Assembly: GCF_013167455.1 (NCBI RefSeq)
Contig: NZ_CP038328.1
Origin: Escherichia coli O157:H7
GTDB lineage: Bacteria > Pseudomonadota > Gammaproteobacteria > Enterobacterales > Enterobacteriaceae
Strand: one strand, 5' to 3'
DNA: 64,000 nt
Positions 670-24,418 of this stretch are shown one piece after another (the first letter of the stretch is position 1; each line of letters begins with the position of its first letter). The notes under the pieces are model-generated. The model ran no database searches, was not told where the DNA came from, and was given only the letters and a program-made list of their open reading frames with translations. A program made the translations under genes and the position numbers.

Positions 670-1929
670 ATGACGGAACAAGAAAAAACCTCCGCCGTGG
701 TTGAAGAGACCAGGGAGGCCGTGGACACCACGTCACAACCTGTCGCAACAGAAAAAAAGAGTAAGAACAATACCGCATTGATTCTCAGCGCGGTGGCTAT
801 CGCTATTGCTCTGGCGGCGGGCGTCGGTTTGTATGGCTGGGGTAAACAACAGGCCGTCAATCAGACCGCCACCAGCGATGCCCTGGCTAACCAACTGACG
901 GCATTGCAAAAAGCCCAGGAGAGCCAAAAAGTCGAGCTGGAAGGCATTATTAAGCAACAAGCTGCACAGCTTAAGCAGGCGAATCGTCAGCAAGAAACGC
1001 TGGCAAAACAGTTGGATGAAGTCCAACAAAAGGTCGCCACCATTTCCGGCAGCGATGCTAAAACCTGGCTGCTGGCTCAGGCCGATTTTCTGGTGAAACT
1101 CGCCGGACGGAAGCTGTGGAGCGATCAGGACGTCACGACCGCTGCAGCGTTGCTGAAAAGTGCAGACGCCAGCCTGGCGGATATGAATGACCCGAGTCTG
1201 ATTACCGTTCGTCGGGCAATTACCGATGATATCGCCAGCCTTTCTGCAGTATCGCAGGTGGATTATGACGGCATCATCCTTAAGCTTAATCAGCTTTCAA
1301 ATCAGGTAGATAACCTGCGTCTGGCCGATAATGACAGCGATGGTTCGCCGATGGATTCCGACGGTGAAGAGCTTTCCAGTTCCATCAGCGAATGGCGTAT
1401 CAATCTGCAAAAAAGCTGGCAGAACTTTATGGACAACTTCATTACGATTCGCCGTCGTGATGACACCGCCGTACCGCTGTTAGCGCCAAATCAGGATATC
1501 TATCTGCGCGAAAATATTCGCTCTCGCCTGCTGGTCGCAGCACAAGCTGTACCGCGTCACCAGCAAGAGACTTATCGCCAGGCGCTGGAGAACGTCTCCA
1601 CCTGGGTACGTGCTTACTACGATACTGATGATGCCACCACCAAAGCGTTCCTCGACGAGGTAGACCAGTTAAGCCAGCAAAATATCTCGATGGATCTTCC
1701 GGAAACCCTGCAAAGCCAGGCGATGCTGGAAAAACTGATGCAGACTCGCGTGCGTAACCTGCTGGCACAACCGGCAGCGGGGACAACGGAAGCTAAACCT
1801 GCACCTGCACCTGCACCTGCACCTGCACCTGCACCTGCACCTGCACCTGCACCTGCACCTGCACCTGCACCTGCACCTGCACCTGCACCGCAAGCTGATA
1901 CTCCGGCAGCCGCGCCGCAAGGAGAATAA
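670..1929 (+). CDS. hemX: HemX membrane protein with C-terminal Pro-Ala repeat
   Basis: 419 aa ORF with N-terminal TM segment ([21 protein letters not shown]), coiled-coil-like region and (PA)15 tail; sits between hemD and hemY. Confidence 0.9.
1798..1887. repeat. Perfect hexanucleotide tandem repeat (CCTGCA)x15, in frame within hemX
   Basis: Read directly: cct gca repeated 15 times from codon boundary 1798, then ccg caa; encodes (Pro-Ala)15. Confidence 0.95.
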
Positions 1930-1931
1930 CC

Positions 1932-3128
1932 ATGCTAAAAGTGTTATTGCTCTTTGTGTTGCTGATTGCGGGGATCGTGGTTGGCCCGATGATTGCCGGT
2001 CATCAGGGTTATGTGCTGATCCAGACCGACAACTACAATATCGAAACCAGCGTCACGGGCCTGGCGATCATATTGATTCTGGCGATGGTAGTGCTGTTTG
2101 CCATTGAGTGGCTACTGCGGCGGATCTTCCGCACTGGCGCGCACACCCGTGGGTGGTTTGTCGGGCGTAAGCGTCGCCGTGCACGTAAGCAGACCGAACA
2201 GGCGCTGCTGAAACTGGCGGAAGGCGATTATCAGCAAGTTGAAAAGCTGATGGCGAAAAATGCCGATCACGCTGAACAACCGGTGGTGAACTATCTACTG
2301 GCTGCCGAAGCCGCGCAACAACGTGGTGATGAAGCGCGCGCCAACCAACATCTGGAACGCGCAGCGGAGCTGGCCGGCAATGACACCATTCCGGTAGAAA
2401 TCACCCGTGTACGTCTGCAACTGGCCCGTAATGAAAACCATGCTGCACGCCACGGCGTGGATAAGCTGCTGGAAGTTACGCCACGCCATCCGGAAGTATT
2501 ACGTCTGGCGGAACAGGCGTATATCCGCACAGGTGCATGGAGTTCGCTGCTGGATATTATCCCATCAATGGCGAAAGCCCATGTTGGTGATGAAGAACAT
2601 CGTGCAATGCTGGAACAACAGGCATGGATTGGCCTGATGGATCAGGCGCGTGCCGATAACGGTAGCGAAGGTTTGCGTAACTGGTGGAAAAACCAAAGCC
2701 GGAAAACGCGTCATCAGGTAGCGTTGCAGGTGGCAATGGCGGAACATCTTATTGAATGTGACGATCATGATACTGCCCAGCAAATTATCATCGATGGCCT
2801 GAAACGCCAGTACGACGATCGCCTACTGCTGCCGATTCCTCGACTGAAAACAAACAATCCGGAACAGCTGGAAAAAGTGCTGCGCCAGCAAATCAAAAAC
2901 GTCGGCGATCGCCCGCTGTTGTGGAGCACACTGGGCCAGTCACTGATGAAGCACGGAGAATGGCAGGAAGCATCGCTCGCCTTCCGCGCAGCGCTGAAAC
3001 AACGTCCGGACGCCTACGATTACGCATGGCTTGCCGACGCGCTGGACAGACTGCACAAGCCGGAAGAAGCTGCAGCGATGCGTCGCGACGGTTTGATGTT
3101 AACGTTGCAGAACAACCCACCACAGTAG
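1932..3128 (+). CDS. hemY: HemY protein (TPR-like, heme biosynthesis-associated)
   Basis: 398 aa ORF; N-terminal TM helices; start is 3 nt after the hemX stop; length matches HemY. Confidence 0.9.
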   Translation: MLKVLLLFVLLIAGIVVGPMIAGHQGYVLIQTDNYNIETSVTGLAIILILAMVVLFAIEWLLRRIFRTGAHTRGWFVGRKRRRARKQTEQALLKLAEGDYQQVEKLMAKNADHAEQPVVNYLLAAEAAQQRGDEARANQHLERAAELAGNDTIPVEITRVRLQLARNENHAARHGVDKLLEVTPRHPEVLRLAEQAYIRTGAWSSLLDIIPSMAKAHVGDEEHRAMLEQQAWIGLMDQARADNGSEGLRNWWKNQSRKTRHQVALQVAMAEHLIECDDHDTAQQIIIDGLKRQYDDRLLLPIPRLKTNNPEQLEKVLRQQIKNVGDRPLLWSTLGQSLMKHGEWQEASLAFRAALKQRPDAYDYAWLADALDRLHKPEEAAAMRRDGLMLTLQNNPPQ

Positions 3129-3175
3129 TTCCTTCTCACCCGGAGGCAAGCACCTCCGGGACCTTCCTGACACAT

Positions 3176-3382
3176 AAAAAAACGCCTGCTCTTATTACGG
3201 AGCAGGCGTTAAAACAGGTCTGTATGACAACAAGTGGGTGCTTCACTCAACGTTGTGTCCATGGTGTCTGATGAGGCATAAGCGACATCTGTCAGTGGAC
3301 GATAAGCACCGTAAACGGCTCTGCGTCATTCCGGAGTTTATGAGGCACTAAGGCGAACATAAGAGATGGAATGAGCATCTAC
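3176..3382 (-). ncRNA. glmZ: GlmZ small RNA (activator of glmS translation)
   Basis: Reverse complement of 3176..3382 reads GTAGATGCTCATTCCATCTCTTATGTTCGCC...CGCCTGCTCCGTAATAAGAGCAGGCGTTTTTTT, matching the GlmZ sequence as I recall it, including its intrinsic terminator hairpin and U-tract; lies between hemY and aslA as expected. Confidence 0.85.
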
Positions 3383-3806
3383 TCGTTTATTATGCCACAG
3401 AGAATCGGGAAATAACATCCCTTAACACTTGTTATGAGATAATTCTGTAATCCTCTTTGCTTCCTGAGTAATAACTTCCTGAGTGAATATTTAACCTGAG
3501 CTTGATCCTACACATACTTATTATGAATGATAAAATTCATTCAATTAATAACACATATATTAATTGCCGTTAAAACTAAAAACAGCATCAATAATCAACG
3601 CGATATAATAAACCTGCCTTACATATCAACTGCGCCAGAGGTAGGATTGAAAACGCTCTCCTGATTTTTAAATTCATTTCTTGGATAAATAAATAATTTA
3701 TTTTTATCACTATTATTTATGTAATCATCCTGTCAGGGAGAGGGATCTCAATTATCAATGCTTAATTACGTCATCATTTTGTTGACATGAAACCGGAGCA
3801 TTTTGC

Positions 3807-5462
3807 ATGGAATTTTCGTTTTCACCCAAACTTCTTGTTGTTGCTGTCGCCGCCGCTCTTCCTCTCATGGCCAGCGCAGCAGATACCCCGTCAACTGCCA
3901 CCGCGCGCAAAGGCTTTGCCGGATACGATCACCCAAACCAGTATCTGGTTAAACCGGCGACCACTATTGCCGACAACATGATGCCAGTAATGCAGCATCC
4001 GGCGCAGGATAAAGAACCCCAGCAGAAGCTGGCAGAACTTGAGAAAAAAACCGGTAAGAAACCGAATGTGGTTGTTTTCTTGCTGGACGATGTGGGCTGG
4101 ATGGACGTCGGTTTTAACGGTGGCGGCGTGGCGGTGGGTAACCCTACACCAGATATCGACGCCGTTGCCAGCCAGGGGCTGATTTTAACTTCGGCGTATT
4201 CTCAACCAAGCTCTTCCCCAACCCGCGCCACCATTCTCACCGGACAATACTCCATCCACCACGGCATTCTGATGCCGCCAATGTACGGGCAACCGGGCGG
4301 GCTGCAAGGGTTAACCACGCTGCCGCAGTTGCTGCACGATCAGGGCTACGTCACTCAGGCCATCGGGAAATGGCATATGGGGGAAAACAAAGAGTCGCAG
4401 CCGCAGAACGTTGGCTTTGATGATTTCCGTGGCTTTAACTCGGTGTCTGATATGTACACCGAATGGCGCGACGTTCACGTCAATCCGGAAGTGGCCCTGA
4501 GTCCGGACCGTTCTGAATACATCAAGCAATTACCATTTAGCAAAGATGACGTTCATGCGGTGCGCGGCGGCGAACAACAGGCCATTGCCGACATTACGCC
4601 GAAATATATGGAAGATCTGGATCAACGCTGGATGGAATATGGCGTTAAGTTCCTCGACAAGATGGCGAAGAGTGATAAGCCTTTCTTCCTCTATTACGGC
4701 ACTCGCGGCTGTCACTTCGATAACTACCCGAACGCCAAATATGCGGGTAGCTCTCCGGCACGCACCTCGTATGGCGACTGCATGGTGGAAATGAACGATG
4801 TGTTCGCTAATCTGTATAAAGCACTGGAGAAAAACGGTCAGCTTGATAACACGCTGATTGTCTTTACCTCCGATAACGGACCGGAAGCCGAAGTACCGCC
4901 GCACGGACGCACACCGTTCCGTGGTGCGAAAGGATCTACCTGGGAAGGCGGCGTTCGCGTACCGACTTTCGTTTACTGGAAAGGCATGATCCAACCGCGT
5001 AAATCTGACGGTATTGTTGATCTGGCAGATCTCTTCCCAACAGCACTGGATCTGGCGGGGCATCCTGGTGCGAAAGTGGCGAATTTAGTGCCGAAAACCA
5101 CCTTTATCGATGGTGTGGACCAGACATCTTTCTTCCTGGGAACAAATGGTCAGTCTAACCGTAAGGCCGAGCACTACTTCCTCAACGGTAAACTCGCTGC
5201 TGTGCGTATGGATGAATTCAAGTATCACGTCCTGATTCAGCAACCTTACGCTTATACCCAGAGCGGATATCAGGGTGGATTCACCGGCACAGTAATGCAA
5301 ACAGCCGGATCGTCGGTGTTTAACCTCTACACCGATCCGCAGGAGAGCGACTCTATCGGCGTGCGCCATATTCCGATGGGTGTACCGCTACAGACCGAAA
5401 TGCACGCGTATATGGAGATCCTGAAAAAGTATCCACCACGCGCGCAGATTAAATCTGATTAA
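3807..5462 (+). CDS. aslA: arylsulfatase-like sulfatase with signal peptide
   Basis: 551 aa ORF; N-terminal signal peptide ([19 protein letters not shown]); sulfatase-family core region with C-T-P-T-R-type motif ([12 protein letters not shown]); position between glmZ and aslB. Confidence 0.9.
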
Positions 5463-7011: not shown

Positions 7012-7088
7012 TGGTCGGCGAGAGAGGATTCGAACCTCCGACCCACTGGTCCCAAACCAGTTGCGCTACCAAGCTGCGCTACTCGCCG
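7012..7088 (-). tRNA. proM: tRNA-Pro (anticodon UGG)
   Basis: Reverse complement gives CGGCGAGTAGCGCAGCTTGGTAGCGCAACTGGTTTGGGACCAGTGGGTCGGAGGTTCGAATCCTCTCTCGCCGACCA, 77 nt with encoded CCA. Confidence 0.95.
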
Positions 7089-7130
7089 AAATACTGCTTT
7101 TTGAATTTTTAGTTCAATTCTTTAAAGTCG

Positions 7131-7217
7131 TGGTGCGAGGGGGGGGACTTGAACCCCCACGTCCGTAAGGACACTAACACCTGAAGCTAGCGCGTCTACC
7201 AATTCCGCCACCTTCGC
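7131..7217 (-). tRNA. leuT: tRNA-Leu (anticodon CAG), duplicated copy
   Basis: Reverse complement gives GCGAAGGTGGCGGAATTGGTAGACGCGCTAGCTTCAGGTGTTAGTGTCCTTACGGACGTGGGGGTTCAAGTCCCCCCCCTCGCACCA, 87 nt; identical to the copy at 7357..7443. Confidence 0.9.
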
Positions 7218-7237
7218 ATTGTCACAACTTCTAATAA

Positions 7238-7314
7238 TGGGGTGGCTAATGGGATTCGAACCTCCGACCCACTGGTCCCAAACCAGTTGCGCTACCAAGC
7301 TGCGCTACTCGCCG
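7238..7314 (-). pseudogene. Chimeric tRNA: tRNA-Pro 5' body fused to tRNA-His 3' T-arm/acceptor strand; predicted non-functional
   Basis: Reverse complement gives CGGCGAGTAGCGCAGCTTGGTAGCGCAACTGGTTTGGGACCAGTGGGTCGGAGGTTCGAATCCCATTAGCCACCCCA; 5' 60 nt equal proM, 3' end equals hisR; junction in the shared GGTTCGAATCC; acceptor and T stems no longer base-pair. Confidence 0.85.
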
Positions 7315-7356
7315 AAATACTGCTTTTTGAATTTTTAGTTCAATTCTTTAAAGTCG

Positions 7357-7443
7357 TGGTGCGAGGGGGGGGACTTGAACCCCCACGTCCGTAAGGACAC
7401 TAACACCTGAAGCTAGCGCGTCTACCAATTCCGCCACCTTCGC
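7357..7443 (-). tRNA. leuT: tRNA-Leu (anticodon CAG)
   Basis: Same 87 nt sequence as 7131..7217; follows hisR after a 20 nt spacer as in the canonical operon. Confidence 0.95.
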
Positions 7444-7463
7444 ATTGTCACAACTTCTAATAA

Positions 7464-7540
7464 TGGGGTGGCTAATGGGATTCGAACCCACGACAACTGG
7501 AATCACAATCCAGGGCTCTACCAACTGAGCTATAGCCACC
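7464..7540 (-). tRNA. hisR: tRNA-His (anticodon GUG)
   Basis: Reverse complement gives GGTGGCTATAGCTCAGTTGGTAGAGCCCTGGATTGTGATTCCAGTTGTCGTGGGTTCGAATCCCATTAGCCACCCCA. Confidence 0.95.
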
Positions 7541-7597
7541 ACTACAAATCTTGTTACGCGGTATTACTACCACCGCAGCTCAAGCGCCGGGACTAAA

Positions 7598-7674
<77 letters not shown>

Positions 7675-23958: not shown

Positions 23959-24288
23959 TTACGCCAGGTTAGCGTCGAGGAACTCTTTCAACTGACCTTT
24001 AGACAGTGCGCCCACTTTGGTTGCCGCCACTTCACCGTTTTTGAACAGCAGCAGAGTCGGGATACCACGGATGCCATATTTCGGCGCAGTGCCAGGGTTT
24101 TGATCGATGTTCAGTTTTGCAACGGTCAGTTTGCCCTGATATTCGTCAGCGATTTCATCCAGAATCGGGGCGATCATTTTGCACGGACCGCACCACTCTG
24201 CCCAGAAATCGACGAGGATCGCCCCGTCCGCTTTGAGTACATCCGTGTCAAAACTGTCGTCAGTCAGGTGAATAATTTTATCGCTCAT
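23959..24288 (-). CDS. trxA: thioredoxin 1
   Basis: ORF 23959..24393 contains [50 protein letters not shown]...; WCGPC active site; 109 aa from the internal Met. Confidence 0.95.
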
Positions 24289-24418
24289 ATATAACTCCAC
24301 AGGAATAAGCCTGGCGTGTTGGTTTCGTTGTTGGTGTAACATTAACCAACTAAAGGTTGACTTTATTTCACCGGATACGCTTTCGTAAAGCAATAGTAAG
24401 CTGATATTCTACCACACT

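What the first reader, a model, noticed from the sequence alone, without database searches (positions are those of the whole stretch)
3129..3382. glmZ sRNA convergent with hemY, with a shared terminator hairpin
GlmZ ends in the hairpin GCCTGCTCTTATTACGGAGCAGGC, which on the + strand lies about 55 nt after the hemY stop with an A-run before it, so the same palindrome is placed to terminate both convergent transcripts. A second hairpin (CCGGAGG-caagcac-CCTCCGG, 3138..3165) immediately follows the hemY stop. The 420 bp AT-rich region upstream of glmZ (3383..3806) is shared with the aslA promoter.
Basis: partly seen in the sequence, partly recalled or inferred. Interest (0 to 1): 0.2.

Follow-up and report, generated by a model that had tools for sequence, protein, structure and literature searches.

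The report
GlmZ small RNA facing hemY
This is the well-known E. coli regulatory RNA gene glmZ lying tail-to-tail with the haem-operon gene hemY, so that both transcripts end around the same hairpin; the arrangement is ordinary and already documented.

Summary
Rfam's GlmZ_SraJ model matches full length at 3176..3382 (-) with 218 bits against a cut-off of 60. The window is E. coli O157:H7, and glmZ with its terminator is identical to K-12. hemY (1932..3128, +) converges on it. Both hairpins exist: hairpin 1 at 3139..3160 and the GlmZ terminator palindrome at 3181..3210 with a 7-A run.

The A-run is the template of GlmZ's own U-tract and does nothing for hemY. On the hemY strand the palindrome is followed by UUAAAAC, and no U-tract occurs there in any of 76 enterobacterial species. 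Even so, published K-12 3'-end maps put hemY 3' ends just after this palindrome (RNAtag-seq/TRS). Term-seq puts them 7 nt after hairpin 1, and a bicyclomycin-sensitive (Rho) region is called at the palindrome.

So the palindrome bounds both transcripts. For hemY it most likely acts as a pause site or exonuclease barrier rather than a canonical intrinsic terminator. The hemY-proximal hairpin is lineage-specific: true terminators, REP-like elements or nothing in other genera. Everything essential is already known, so interest is low.

The parts
1932..3128 (+). hemY coding sequence (398 aa), last gene of hemCDXY
   Evidence: ORF list. RefSeq annotation of the identical O157:H7 record and of K-12.
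3139..3160 (+). Hairpin 1: CCCGGAGG-CAAGCA-CCTCCGGG. Escherichia-specific, single-copy, followed by a pyrimidine-rich but not U-rich tail (ACCUUCCU).
   Evidence: Fold -16.9 kcal/mol, z -4.6. One place per genome in 4729 E. coli genomes. One compensatory G-C to A-U change in E. albertii and one A-U to G-U change in ATCC 8739, but the covariation statistics are weak.
3167..3167 (+). Position equivalent to the hemY 'primary' 3' end mapped by Term-seq in K-12 (3986647, - strand), 7 nt after hairpin 1
   Evidence: Adams et al. 2021 Supplementary file 1. Coordinate map K-12 = 3989814 - window x, derived.
3176..3382 (-). glmZ gene (GlmZ/SraJ/RyiA sRNA, 207 nt)
   Evidence: RF00083 full-length match, 218.4 bits. 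100% identical to K-12 glmZ. +1 and +207 agree with the primers of PMC2377431.
3176..3182 (-). U7 tract of the GlmZ terminator (seven A on the + strand)
   Evidence: Sequence. A-run length is 7 in 76 of 76 species.
3181..3210 (.). GlmZ terminator palindrome. It forms a stable hairpin in RNA of either strand.
   Evidence: Terminator scan hit on the - strand only. Folds on both strands. All 10 consensus pairs kept in 52 distinct sequences, 3 with compensatory changes.
3210..3221 (+). Positions equivalent to the hemY-strand 3'-end cluster mapped by TRS/RNAtag-seq in K-12 (3986593-3986604, -), and to the Rho-score maximum (3986596)
   Evidence: PMC10687069 Supplementary Data 2-4. PMC7815308 Supplementary file 2.
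3229..3231 (-). Position equivalent to the processed GlmZ 3' end (RapZ/RNase E cleavage, about nt 152-154)
   Evidence: Term-seq 3' ends at K-12 3986583 and 3986585 (+). Mechanism from PMC4152352.
3125..3136 (-). Positions equivalent to a minor 3' end of GlmZ-strand readthrough RNA just past hairpin 1 (K-12 3986678-3986689, +)
   Evidence: PMC10687069 Supplementary Data 3. A Rho region is also called at 3986668 (+), score 2.8.
3383..3422 (-). glmZ core sigma-70 promoter (-40 to -1). The -10 hexamer CATAAT is at 3394->3389, preceded by TGG.
   Evidence: Sequence. Promoter deletion and mutation analysis in PMC3045617. The simple consensus scan misses it.
3383..3806 (.). AT-rich glmZ-aslA divergent intergenic region (424 bp, GC 31.8%)
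3807..5462 (+). aslA (arylsulfatase), divergent from glmZ

Best explanation
Region 3176..3382 (-) is glmZ. It encodes the 207-nt sRNA GlmZ, which activates glmS translation and is inactivated by RapZ/RNase E cleavage near nt 152-154. It is transcribed from a constitutive sigma-70 promoter within the 40 bp upstream (3383..3422). It is terminated by a canonical intrinsic terminator, the hairpin 3210->3181 followed by U7.

hemY converges on it. The hemY mRNA 3'UTR runs through an Escherichia-specific hairpin with no U-tract (3139..3160) and then into the glmZ terminator palindrome. Steady-state hemY 3' ends lie about 7 nt after each hairpin, giving a 42-nt overlap with GlmZ's 3' end.

Shown: identity, structures, conservation, and the positions of 3' ends in K-12.

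Inferred: on the hemY strand the palindrome is not a canonical intrinsic terminator. Most likely RNA polymerase pauses at it or reads through it. Release is then achieved by Rho further downstream and/or by encounters with polymerases transcribing glmZ. 3'-to-5' exonucleases then trim back to the two hairpins, which act as protective caps, as described for Rho-dependent transcripts by Dar and Sorek 2018.

Rough sub-probabilities: GlmZ identity 0.99; the palindrome marks a real hemY 3' end 0.8; the Rho-plus-trimming mechanism specifically about 0.45.
For: - Rfam match of 218 bits, full length, and identity to K-12.
- Literature on +1, the 207-nt length, the promoter and synteny.
- The terminator scan calls the site on the GlmZ strand only. 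Approximate scores are +39 on the GlmZ strand versus -18 on the hemY strand.
- The hemY-strand tail has 0-2 U in the first 8 nt in all 76 species.
- Published hemY-strand 3' ends lie after hairpin 2, with TRS statistic 0.98-1.0 and a 90-nt 3'UTR, and after hairpin 1.
- A Rho region is called at K-12 3986596 (-), score 10.3, p 4e-44.
- In 8 species with a usable locus the spacer is 18 nt or less (9 counted in the table, one cut at a contig end), and in 16 species another gene abuts glmZ. In all of these the palindrome is the only hairpin between the convergent gene and glmZ.
Against: - With bicyclomycin, downstream coverage (473) exceeds upstream coverage (154). Part of the Rho signal may therefore be de-repressed transcription in the AT-rich aslA upstream region, or 3' bias of direct RNA sequencing, rather than hemY readthrough.
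- The 170 nt right after the palindrome on the hemY strand are G-rich (C/G 0.74), which is poor for Rho loading. C>G begins only at 3383.
- Term-seq and RNAtag-seq disagree on which hairpin carries the dominant hemY 3' end.
- All experimental data are from K-12, not O157:H7. The two differ at 2 bases in the 47-nt spacer.
Confidence: 0.8

Rival explanations
1. One reading: the palindrome is a genuine bidirectional intrinsic terminator that releases both GlmZ and hemY transcripts without factors.
For: - The hairpin is very stable on the hemY strand (-21.6 kcal/mol).
- hemY-strand 3' ends lie within about 1-11 nt of the stem, with almost no local readthrough.
- Several species have no other hairpin after hemY.
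Against: - There is no U-tract on the hemY strand (UUAAAAC). The scan finds no + strand terminator and the approximate score is -18.
- The tail is fixed by GlmZ's own conserved single-stranded region in all 76 species.
- A bicyclomycin-sensitive region is called at this very position.
Confidence: 0.2
2. Hairpin 1 is the real hemY terminator and the palindrome serves GlmZ only. hemY-strand ends at the palindrome would then be minor readthrough products.
For: - Term-seq 'primary' hemY 3' end at K-12 3986647 in at least two growth conditions.
- The hairpin is retained across Escherichia with one compensatory change, while its flanks vary.
- The tail is pyrimidine-rich, with 4-5 U of 8 in E. coli and E. 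albertii strains.
Against: - The tail is not a U-tract and the approximate score is -40.
- TRS assigns hemY a 90-nt 3'UTR reaching the palindrome and does not list a terminus at hairpin 1 in the stored sheets.
- The Term-seq peak is only about 2.4 times the smallest minus-strand value in that table.
- Covariation support is weak: 77 of 500 shuffles reach the observed value.
Confidence: 0.2
3. Collision-driven bidirectional termination (Ju et al. 2019; Wang et al. preprint): the hairpin pauses polymerases from both sides, and head-on plus trailing collisions between hemY and glmZ polymerases release them.
For: - Convergent units with overlapping 3' ends (42 nt) spanning a hairpin.
- glmZ has a constitutive promoter.
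- This class is described as not resembling intrinsic terminators.
Against: - That class is described as Rho-independent, whereas a Rho region is called here.
- I could not check membership in the Ju et al. list because the paper is not held.
- GlmZ's side is a fully canonical terminator that needs no collision.
Confidence: 0.2

Closest known systems
GlmZ (SraJ/RyiA) sRNA of E. coli K-12, Rfam RF00083
   Same: Identical sequence, length, terminator, promoter region and position between hemY and aslA.
   Different: Nothing within the RNA. The host is O157:H7, and the hemY-glmZ spacer differs from K-12 at 2 of 47 bases.
[quoted passage not shown]
   Same: Both hairpins on the hemY strand are stable and U-poor, with precise 3' ends a few nt downstream and a bicyclomycin-sensitive region.
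   Different: Hairpin 2 has an upstream A-tract, which that class typically lacks, because it doubles as GlmZ's terminator. The sequence immediately downstream is G-rich rather than C-rich.
Bidirectional terminators between convergent genes (Ju et al. 2019)
   Same: Convergent pair with overlapping 3' ends around one hairpin.
   Different: One side (GlmZ) is a canonical A-tract/hairpin/U-tract terminator and the other side has no U-tract. Rho independence is not shown here.

Membership tests
GlmZ_SraJ (RF00083) | Covariance-model score above the curated gathering score over the full model | tested here: met
   218.4 bits against 60, model positions 1-214 of 214 (repeated)
GlmZ_SraJ (RF00083) | Same sequence, start and end as the experimentally characterised K-12 GlmZ | tested here: met
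   100% identity over glmZ. +1 and +207 from the primers in PMC2377431.
GlmZ_SraJ (RF00083) | Conserved position downstream of, and convergent with, hemCDXY | tested here: met
   77 of 80 enterobacterial loci have glmZ downstream of hemY. Synteny is stated in PMC3045617.
GlmZ_SraJ (RF00083) | 3' Rho-independent terminator (hairpin plus U-tract) | tested here: met
   11-pair stem plus U7. All consensus pairs kept in 52 distinct sequences.
GlmZ_SraJ (RF00083) | RapZ/RNase E processing near nt 152-154 and base-pairing with the glmS leader | not testable with these tools
   Implied by sequence identity. K-12 Term-seq 3' ends at 3986583/5. Mechanism from PMC4152352. The glmS leader is not in the window.
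Canonical intrinsic terminator acting on the hemY strand (hairpin 2) | GC-rich stem-loop | tested here: met
   -21.6 kcal/mol, z -7.3
Canonical intrinsic terminator acting on the hemY strand (hairpin 2) | U-rich tract immediately after the stem | tested here: not met
   The tail is UUAAAACAGG. No + strand hit. Approximate score -18. 0-2 U in the first 8 nt after the folded stem in all 76 species.
Canonical intrinsic terminator acting on the hemY strand (hairpin 2) | Independence from Rho | tested here: inconclusive
   Published Rho score 10.3 at K-12 3986596 (-). Downstream coverage exceeds upstream coverage with bicyclomycin, so the source of the signal is ambiguous.
Bidirectional terminators of convergent genes (Ju et al. 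2019) | Convergent transcripts with overlapping 3' ends spanning a hairpin | tested here: met
   GlmZ 3' end at window 3176 and hemY-strand 3' ends at window 3210-3221, from published K-12 tables
Bidirectional terminators of convergent genes (Ju et al. 2019) | Listed in, or behaving as in, the SEnd-seq data set, and Rho-independent | not testable with these tools
   The paper and its tables are not held.
REP/BIME dispersed palindromes (for hairpin 1) | Many dispersed copies per genome | tested here: not met
   Median 1, at most 2 places per genome in 4729 E. coli genomes. By contrast, the Citrobacter/Salmonella element at this position looks REP-like (the resemblance is from memory).

The most novel reading that the evidence does not exclude
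The hemY 3'UTR carries the exact complement of GlmZ's last 42 nt. Convergent transcription could therefore couple the two units functionally. hemCDXY readthrough or the stable hemY 3'UTR fragment could pair with GlmZ, or interfere with its termination or terminator-dependent Hfq binding. That would link haem-operon transcription to control of cell-envelope amino-sugar synthesis. The lineage-specific hairpins, terminators or inserted genes upstream of the palindrome would then be ways of tuning how much transcription reaches glmZ.
Probability: 0.05. Interest if true: 0.5.

Novelty: already known. Interest (0 to 1): 0.12.

Why it matters
It matters little. GlmZ, its promoter, its terminator and its convergent position next to hemY are textbook for this field, and the 3' ends of both transcripts are already in published tables. 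The modest added value has three parts:
- It corrects the reasoning: an A-run upstream of a hairpin does not make that hairpin a terminator for that strand.
- It shows that two published 3'-end maps disagree on where hemY ends.
- It shows across 80 species that the palindrome is the only constant element between glmZ and its convergent neighbour, while hemY's own hairpin is repeatedly replaced.

Tried and rejected
- Ju et al. 2019, the bidirectional terminator list: not held under its DOI or PMC id, so membership could not be checked.
- Supplements of Dar and Sorek 2018 and of the nanopore study PMC8848933 are not held.
- Strand-asymmetry test on the terminator stem. In the lower nine pairs there are 20 G·U cells on the GlmZ strand versus 0 A·C, which suggests selection on the GlmZ strand only. 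But the top pair has 5 A·C cells, and hairpin energies do not differ between strands (-19.5 versus -19.0 kcal/mol, p 0.25). I therefore do not take it as proof that the hemY-strand hairpin is unselected.
- Covariation in hairpin 1: only one compensatory event, and 77 of 500 shuffles do as well, so it is suggestive only.
- Hairpin 1 as a REP-type repeat: rejected, because it is single-copy.
- The consensus promoter scan does not find the experimentally defined glmZ promoter. Its four hits in the AT-rich region are near the chance expectation.
- A weak SNORA68 match (21.5 bits, E 0.21) over 3163..3255 is noise.
- RNase III cleavage of a hemY/GlmZ duplex as the source of the end at 3217: no matching GlmZ end is known, so I did not pursue it.

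Full report
**What is there.**
The window is E. coli O157:H7. A 1-kb stretch around the finding is 100% identical to strain PV15-279 and is present in 5425 of 5426 complete E. coli genomes.

Rfam's GlmZ_SraJ model (RF00083) matches over its whole length at 3382->3176 on the minus strand, with 218.4 bits against a gathering score of 60. Nothing else credible appears when the region is rescanned permissively.

The glmZ sequence, its terminator and its first 300 upstream bases are identical to K-12 MG1655. The 47-nt hemY-glmZ spacer differs at two bases. The transcription start (GTAGATGC...) and the 207-nt 3' end agree with the primers used by Reichenbach et al. (PMC2377431).

hemY is 1932..3128 (+) and aslA is 3807..5462 (+). 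So glmZ converges on hemY and diverges from aslA, as the literature states (PMC4152352; PMC3045617).

**Checking the described features.**
- The quoted terminator string lies at 3184..3207, 56 nt after the hemY stop, and is preceded by seven A (3176..3182).
- With its flanking A-U pairs the palindrome spans 3181..3210. It folds stably in RNA of either strand: -21.6 kcal/mol on + and -19.8 on -, with no shuffle folding as well.
- The second hairpin exists at 3139..3160 as CCCGGAGG-CAAGCA-CCTCCGGG (-16.9 kcal/mol).
- The glmZ-aslA intergenic region is 424 bp with 31.8% GC.

**Is the palindrome a terminator for hemY?**
That A-run is the template of GlmZ's U7 tail and serves the minus strand.

An intrinsic terminator for hemY would need U residues after the hairpin on the + strand, and the sequence there is UUAAAACAGG. 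The consensus scan reports a terminator on the minus strand only. An approximate d'Aubenton-Carafa score, computed with ViennaRNA energies, is +39 for the GlmZ strand and -18 for the hemY strand. Hairpin 1 scores -40 and -24 on its two strands.

**Published 3'-end maps for the identical K-12 sequence.**
I used the map K-12 coordinate = 3989814 minus window coordinate.

TRS analysis of RNAtag-seq (PMC10687069):
- It lists a 'primary' hemY terminus at 3986593-3986604 (-), which is window 3210-3221, just past the palindrome. The local-readthrough statistic is 0.98-1.0, and the terminus appears in two data tables.
- It assigns hemY a 90-nt 3'UTR.
- It places the GlmZ terminus at 3986634-45 (+).
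- It lists a minor plus-strand terminus at 3986678-89, just past hairpin 1 on the GlmZ strand.
- Sources; column definitions.

Term-seq of Adams et al. (PMC7815308):
- It lists the hemY primary 3' end at 3986647 (-), which is window 3167, 7 nt after hairpin 1, in at least two growth conditions.
- I confirmed that their sequence strings show 50 nt upstream, the 3' end and 10 nt downstream, using sgrS as a check.
- Minus-strand counts in that table seem to be on their own scale, because the value 23469 recurs as a floor. The hemY peak is therefore only about 2.4 times the smallest listed value.

Adams et al.'s bicyclomycin experiment calls two Rho termination regions:
- At 3986596 (-): Rho score 10.3, p 4e-44. 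Coverage is 175 upstream and 52 downstream without the drug, and 154 and 473 with it.
- At 3986668 (+): score 2.8. Coverage is 1924 upstream and 30 downstream without the drug, so the GlmZ terminator lets through under 2%.

Downstream coverage on the hemY strand exceeds upstream coverage with the drug. Part of that signal may therefore come from de-repressed transcription in the AT-rich region, or from 3' bias of direct RNA sequencing.

**Comparative evidence.**
Using HemY I fetched 80 species-level enterobacterial loci. glmZ lies downstream of hemY and convergent with it in 77 of them.

On the hemY strand, the seven-A run is invariant (76 of 76). The tail after the folded stem has 0-2 U in the first 8 nt in every species, because it is GlmZ's own conserved single-stranded segment.

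The terminator stem is maintained in all 52 distinct sequences, with compensatory changes at three pairs.

The element between hemY and the palindrome turns over by lineage:
- Escherichia has hairpin 1.
- Enterobacter, Lelliottia, Kluyvera, Pluralibacter and Pseudocitrobacter have clear hairpin-plus-U-tract terminators.
- Citrobacter and Salmonella have a REP-like palindrome.
- Klebsiella and Raoultella have a different hairpin.
- Nine loci have no hairpin of their own. The spacer goes down to -2 nt, where the hemY stop overlaps the A-run. One of the nine is cut at a contig end.
- Sixteen species have a roughly 400-aa membrane-protein gene inserted, whose stop lies 5-25 nt from GlmZ's 3' end.

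By a lax criterion, 38 loci have a hairpin with at least 5 U in the next 8 nt, 33 have a hairpin without that, and 9 have none.

Hairpin 1 is single-copy in E. coli. Its stem is kept across Escherichia while its flanks vary. There is one compensatory G-C to A-U change in E. albertii and one A-U to G-U change in ATCC 8739. With only eight sequences the statistics are weak.

**Most likely mechanism.**
glmZ is a self-contained unit with a sigma-70 promoter inside 3383..3422. Everything upstream of -40 is dispensable and GlrR does not bind (PMC3045617). Its terminator is canonical.

hemY transcription enters this unit from the other side. On that strand both hairpins match what Dar and Sorek (PMC6061677) describe for Rho-dependent transcripts: stable stem-loops without a U-tract, with precise steady-state 3' ends just downstream.

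I therefore favour the following sequence of events:
- Polymerase pauses at, or reads through, the palindrome.
- Release occurs by Rho and/or by encounters with glmZ polymerases.
- Exonucleases trim back to the palindrome, and partly on to hairpin 1.

One point against a simple Rho model is that the first 170 nt after the palindrome on the hemY strand are G-rich (C/G 0.74), and C>G begins only in the AT-rich region.

True factor-independent bidirectional termination, termination at hairpin 1, and collision-driven termination all remain possible and are not mutually exclusive.

**Verdict.**
The GlmZ call is certain. The 'shared terminator' is right as a description of where both transcripts end in part of the published data, but the reasoning is wrong and canonical mechanism is unlikely. 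The sRNA, its synteny, its promoter and the 3'-end positions are all already published, so novelty is nil and interest is low.

Noticed in passing
window 1797..1889: hemX contains a perfect (ACCTGC) x 15.5 hexanucleotide tandem repeat encoding a Pro-Ala run. hemX is 1200 nt in O157:H7 and 1182 nt in K-12, so the array is probably length-polymorphic.
   Followed up: partly
window 7012..7674 (-): The tRNA cluster after aslB has six genes (Pro, Leu, Pro, Leu, His, Arg) against four in K-12 (argX-hisR-leuT-proM). The Leu-Pro pair is duplicated. The second Pro copy (7240..7314) scores only 34.6 bits in Rfam against about 66 for the other.
   Followed up: partly
L020, L032, L034, L037, L039, L053, L054, L057, L058, L060, L064, L076, L077 and others, between hemY and glmZ: About 16 species carry a roughly 400-aa hydrophobic protein gene between hemY and glmZ, co-directional with hemY, whose stop lies 5-25 nt from GlmZ's 3' end. 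It has no Pfam hit and only a weak sub-threshold match to TIGR00900 (MFS H+ antiporter; E 1e-13 to 1e-5). Presence varies within the Enterobacter cloacae complex (L053 has it, L040 does not).
   Followed up: partly
L067-L069, L078 (Raoultella); L051 (Klebsiella spallanzanii): The glmZ alignment spans about 260 nt instead of 207 in Raoultella, an apparent insertion of about 53 nt. In K. spallanzanii it is split by roughly 150 nt. The RNA may be altered or interrupted in these species.
   Followed up: no
L085 about 331 (E. coli EC06): An IS150 copy is inserted into the 3' arm of hairpin 1, separating hemY from glmZ in this strain.
   Followed up: no
L004 4197..4510 and L006 4197..4836 (E. whittamii, Escherichia sp. 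E1V33): These Escherichia species lack hairpin 1. Directly after hemY they have a canonical terminator (ATATCGCCTC-GTTCA-GAGGCGATAT followed by T7) and then 312 or 638 extra bases, which begin with a possible small ORF.
   Followed up: no
K-12 3986432..3986638 (window 3176..3382): - RefSeq K-12 annotates glmZ as 172 nt (3986432..3986603), not 207 nt.
- The PGAP annotation of the O157:H7 record has no glmZ feature.
- The curated Term-seq table of Adams et al. lists only the processed GlmZ 3' end, not the full-length end.
   Followed up: partly
window 3460..3489: A roughly 15-nt unit (CTTCCTGAGTGAATAA) occurs twice in tandem in the AT-rich glmZ-aslA intergenic region. Its function is unknown, and it lies in the part shown to be dispensable for glmZ promoter activity.
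   Followed up: no
window 39471..39760 (-), 46316..46424 (-), 24259..24358 (-): Other Rfam hits above gathering score elsewhere in the window: Rev39 5'UTR (156 bits), StyR-44 next to the 23S rRNA, and the TrxA 5'UTR thermometer.
   Followed up: no
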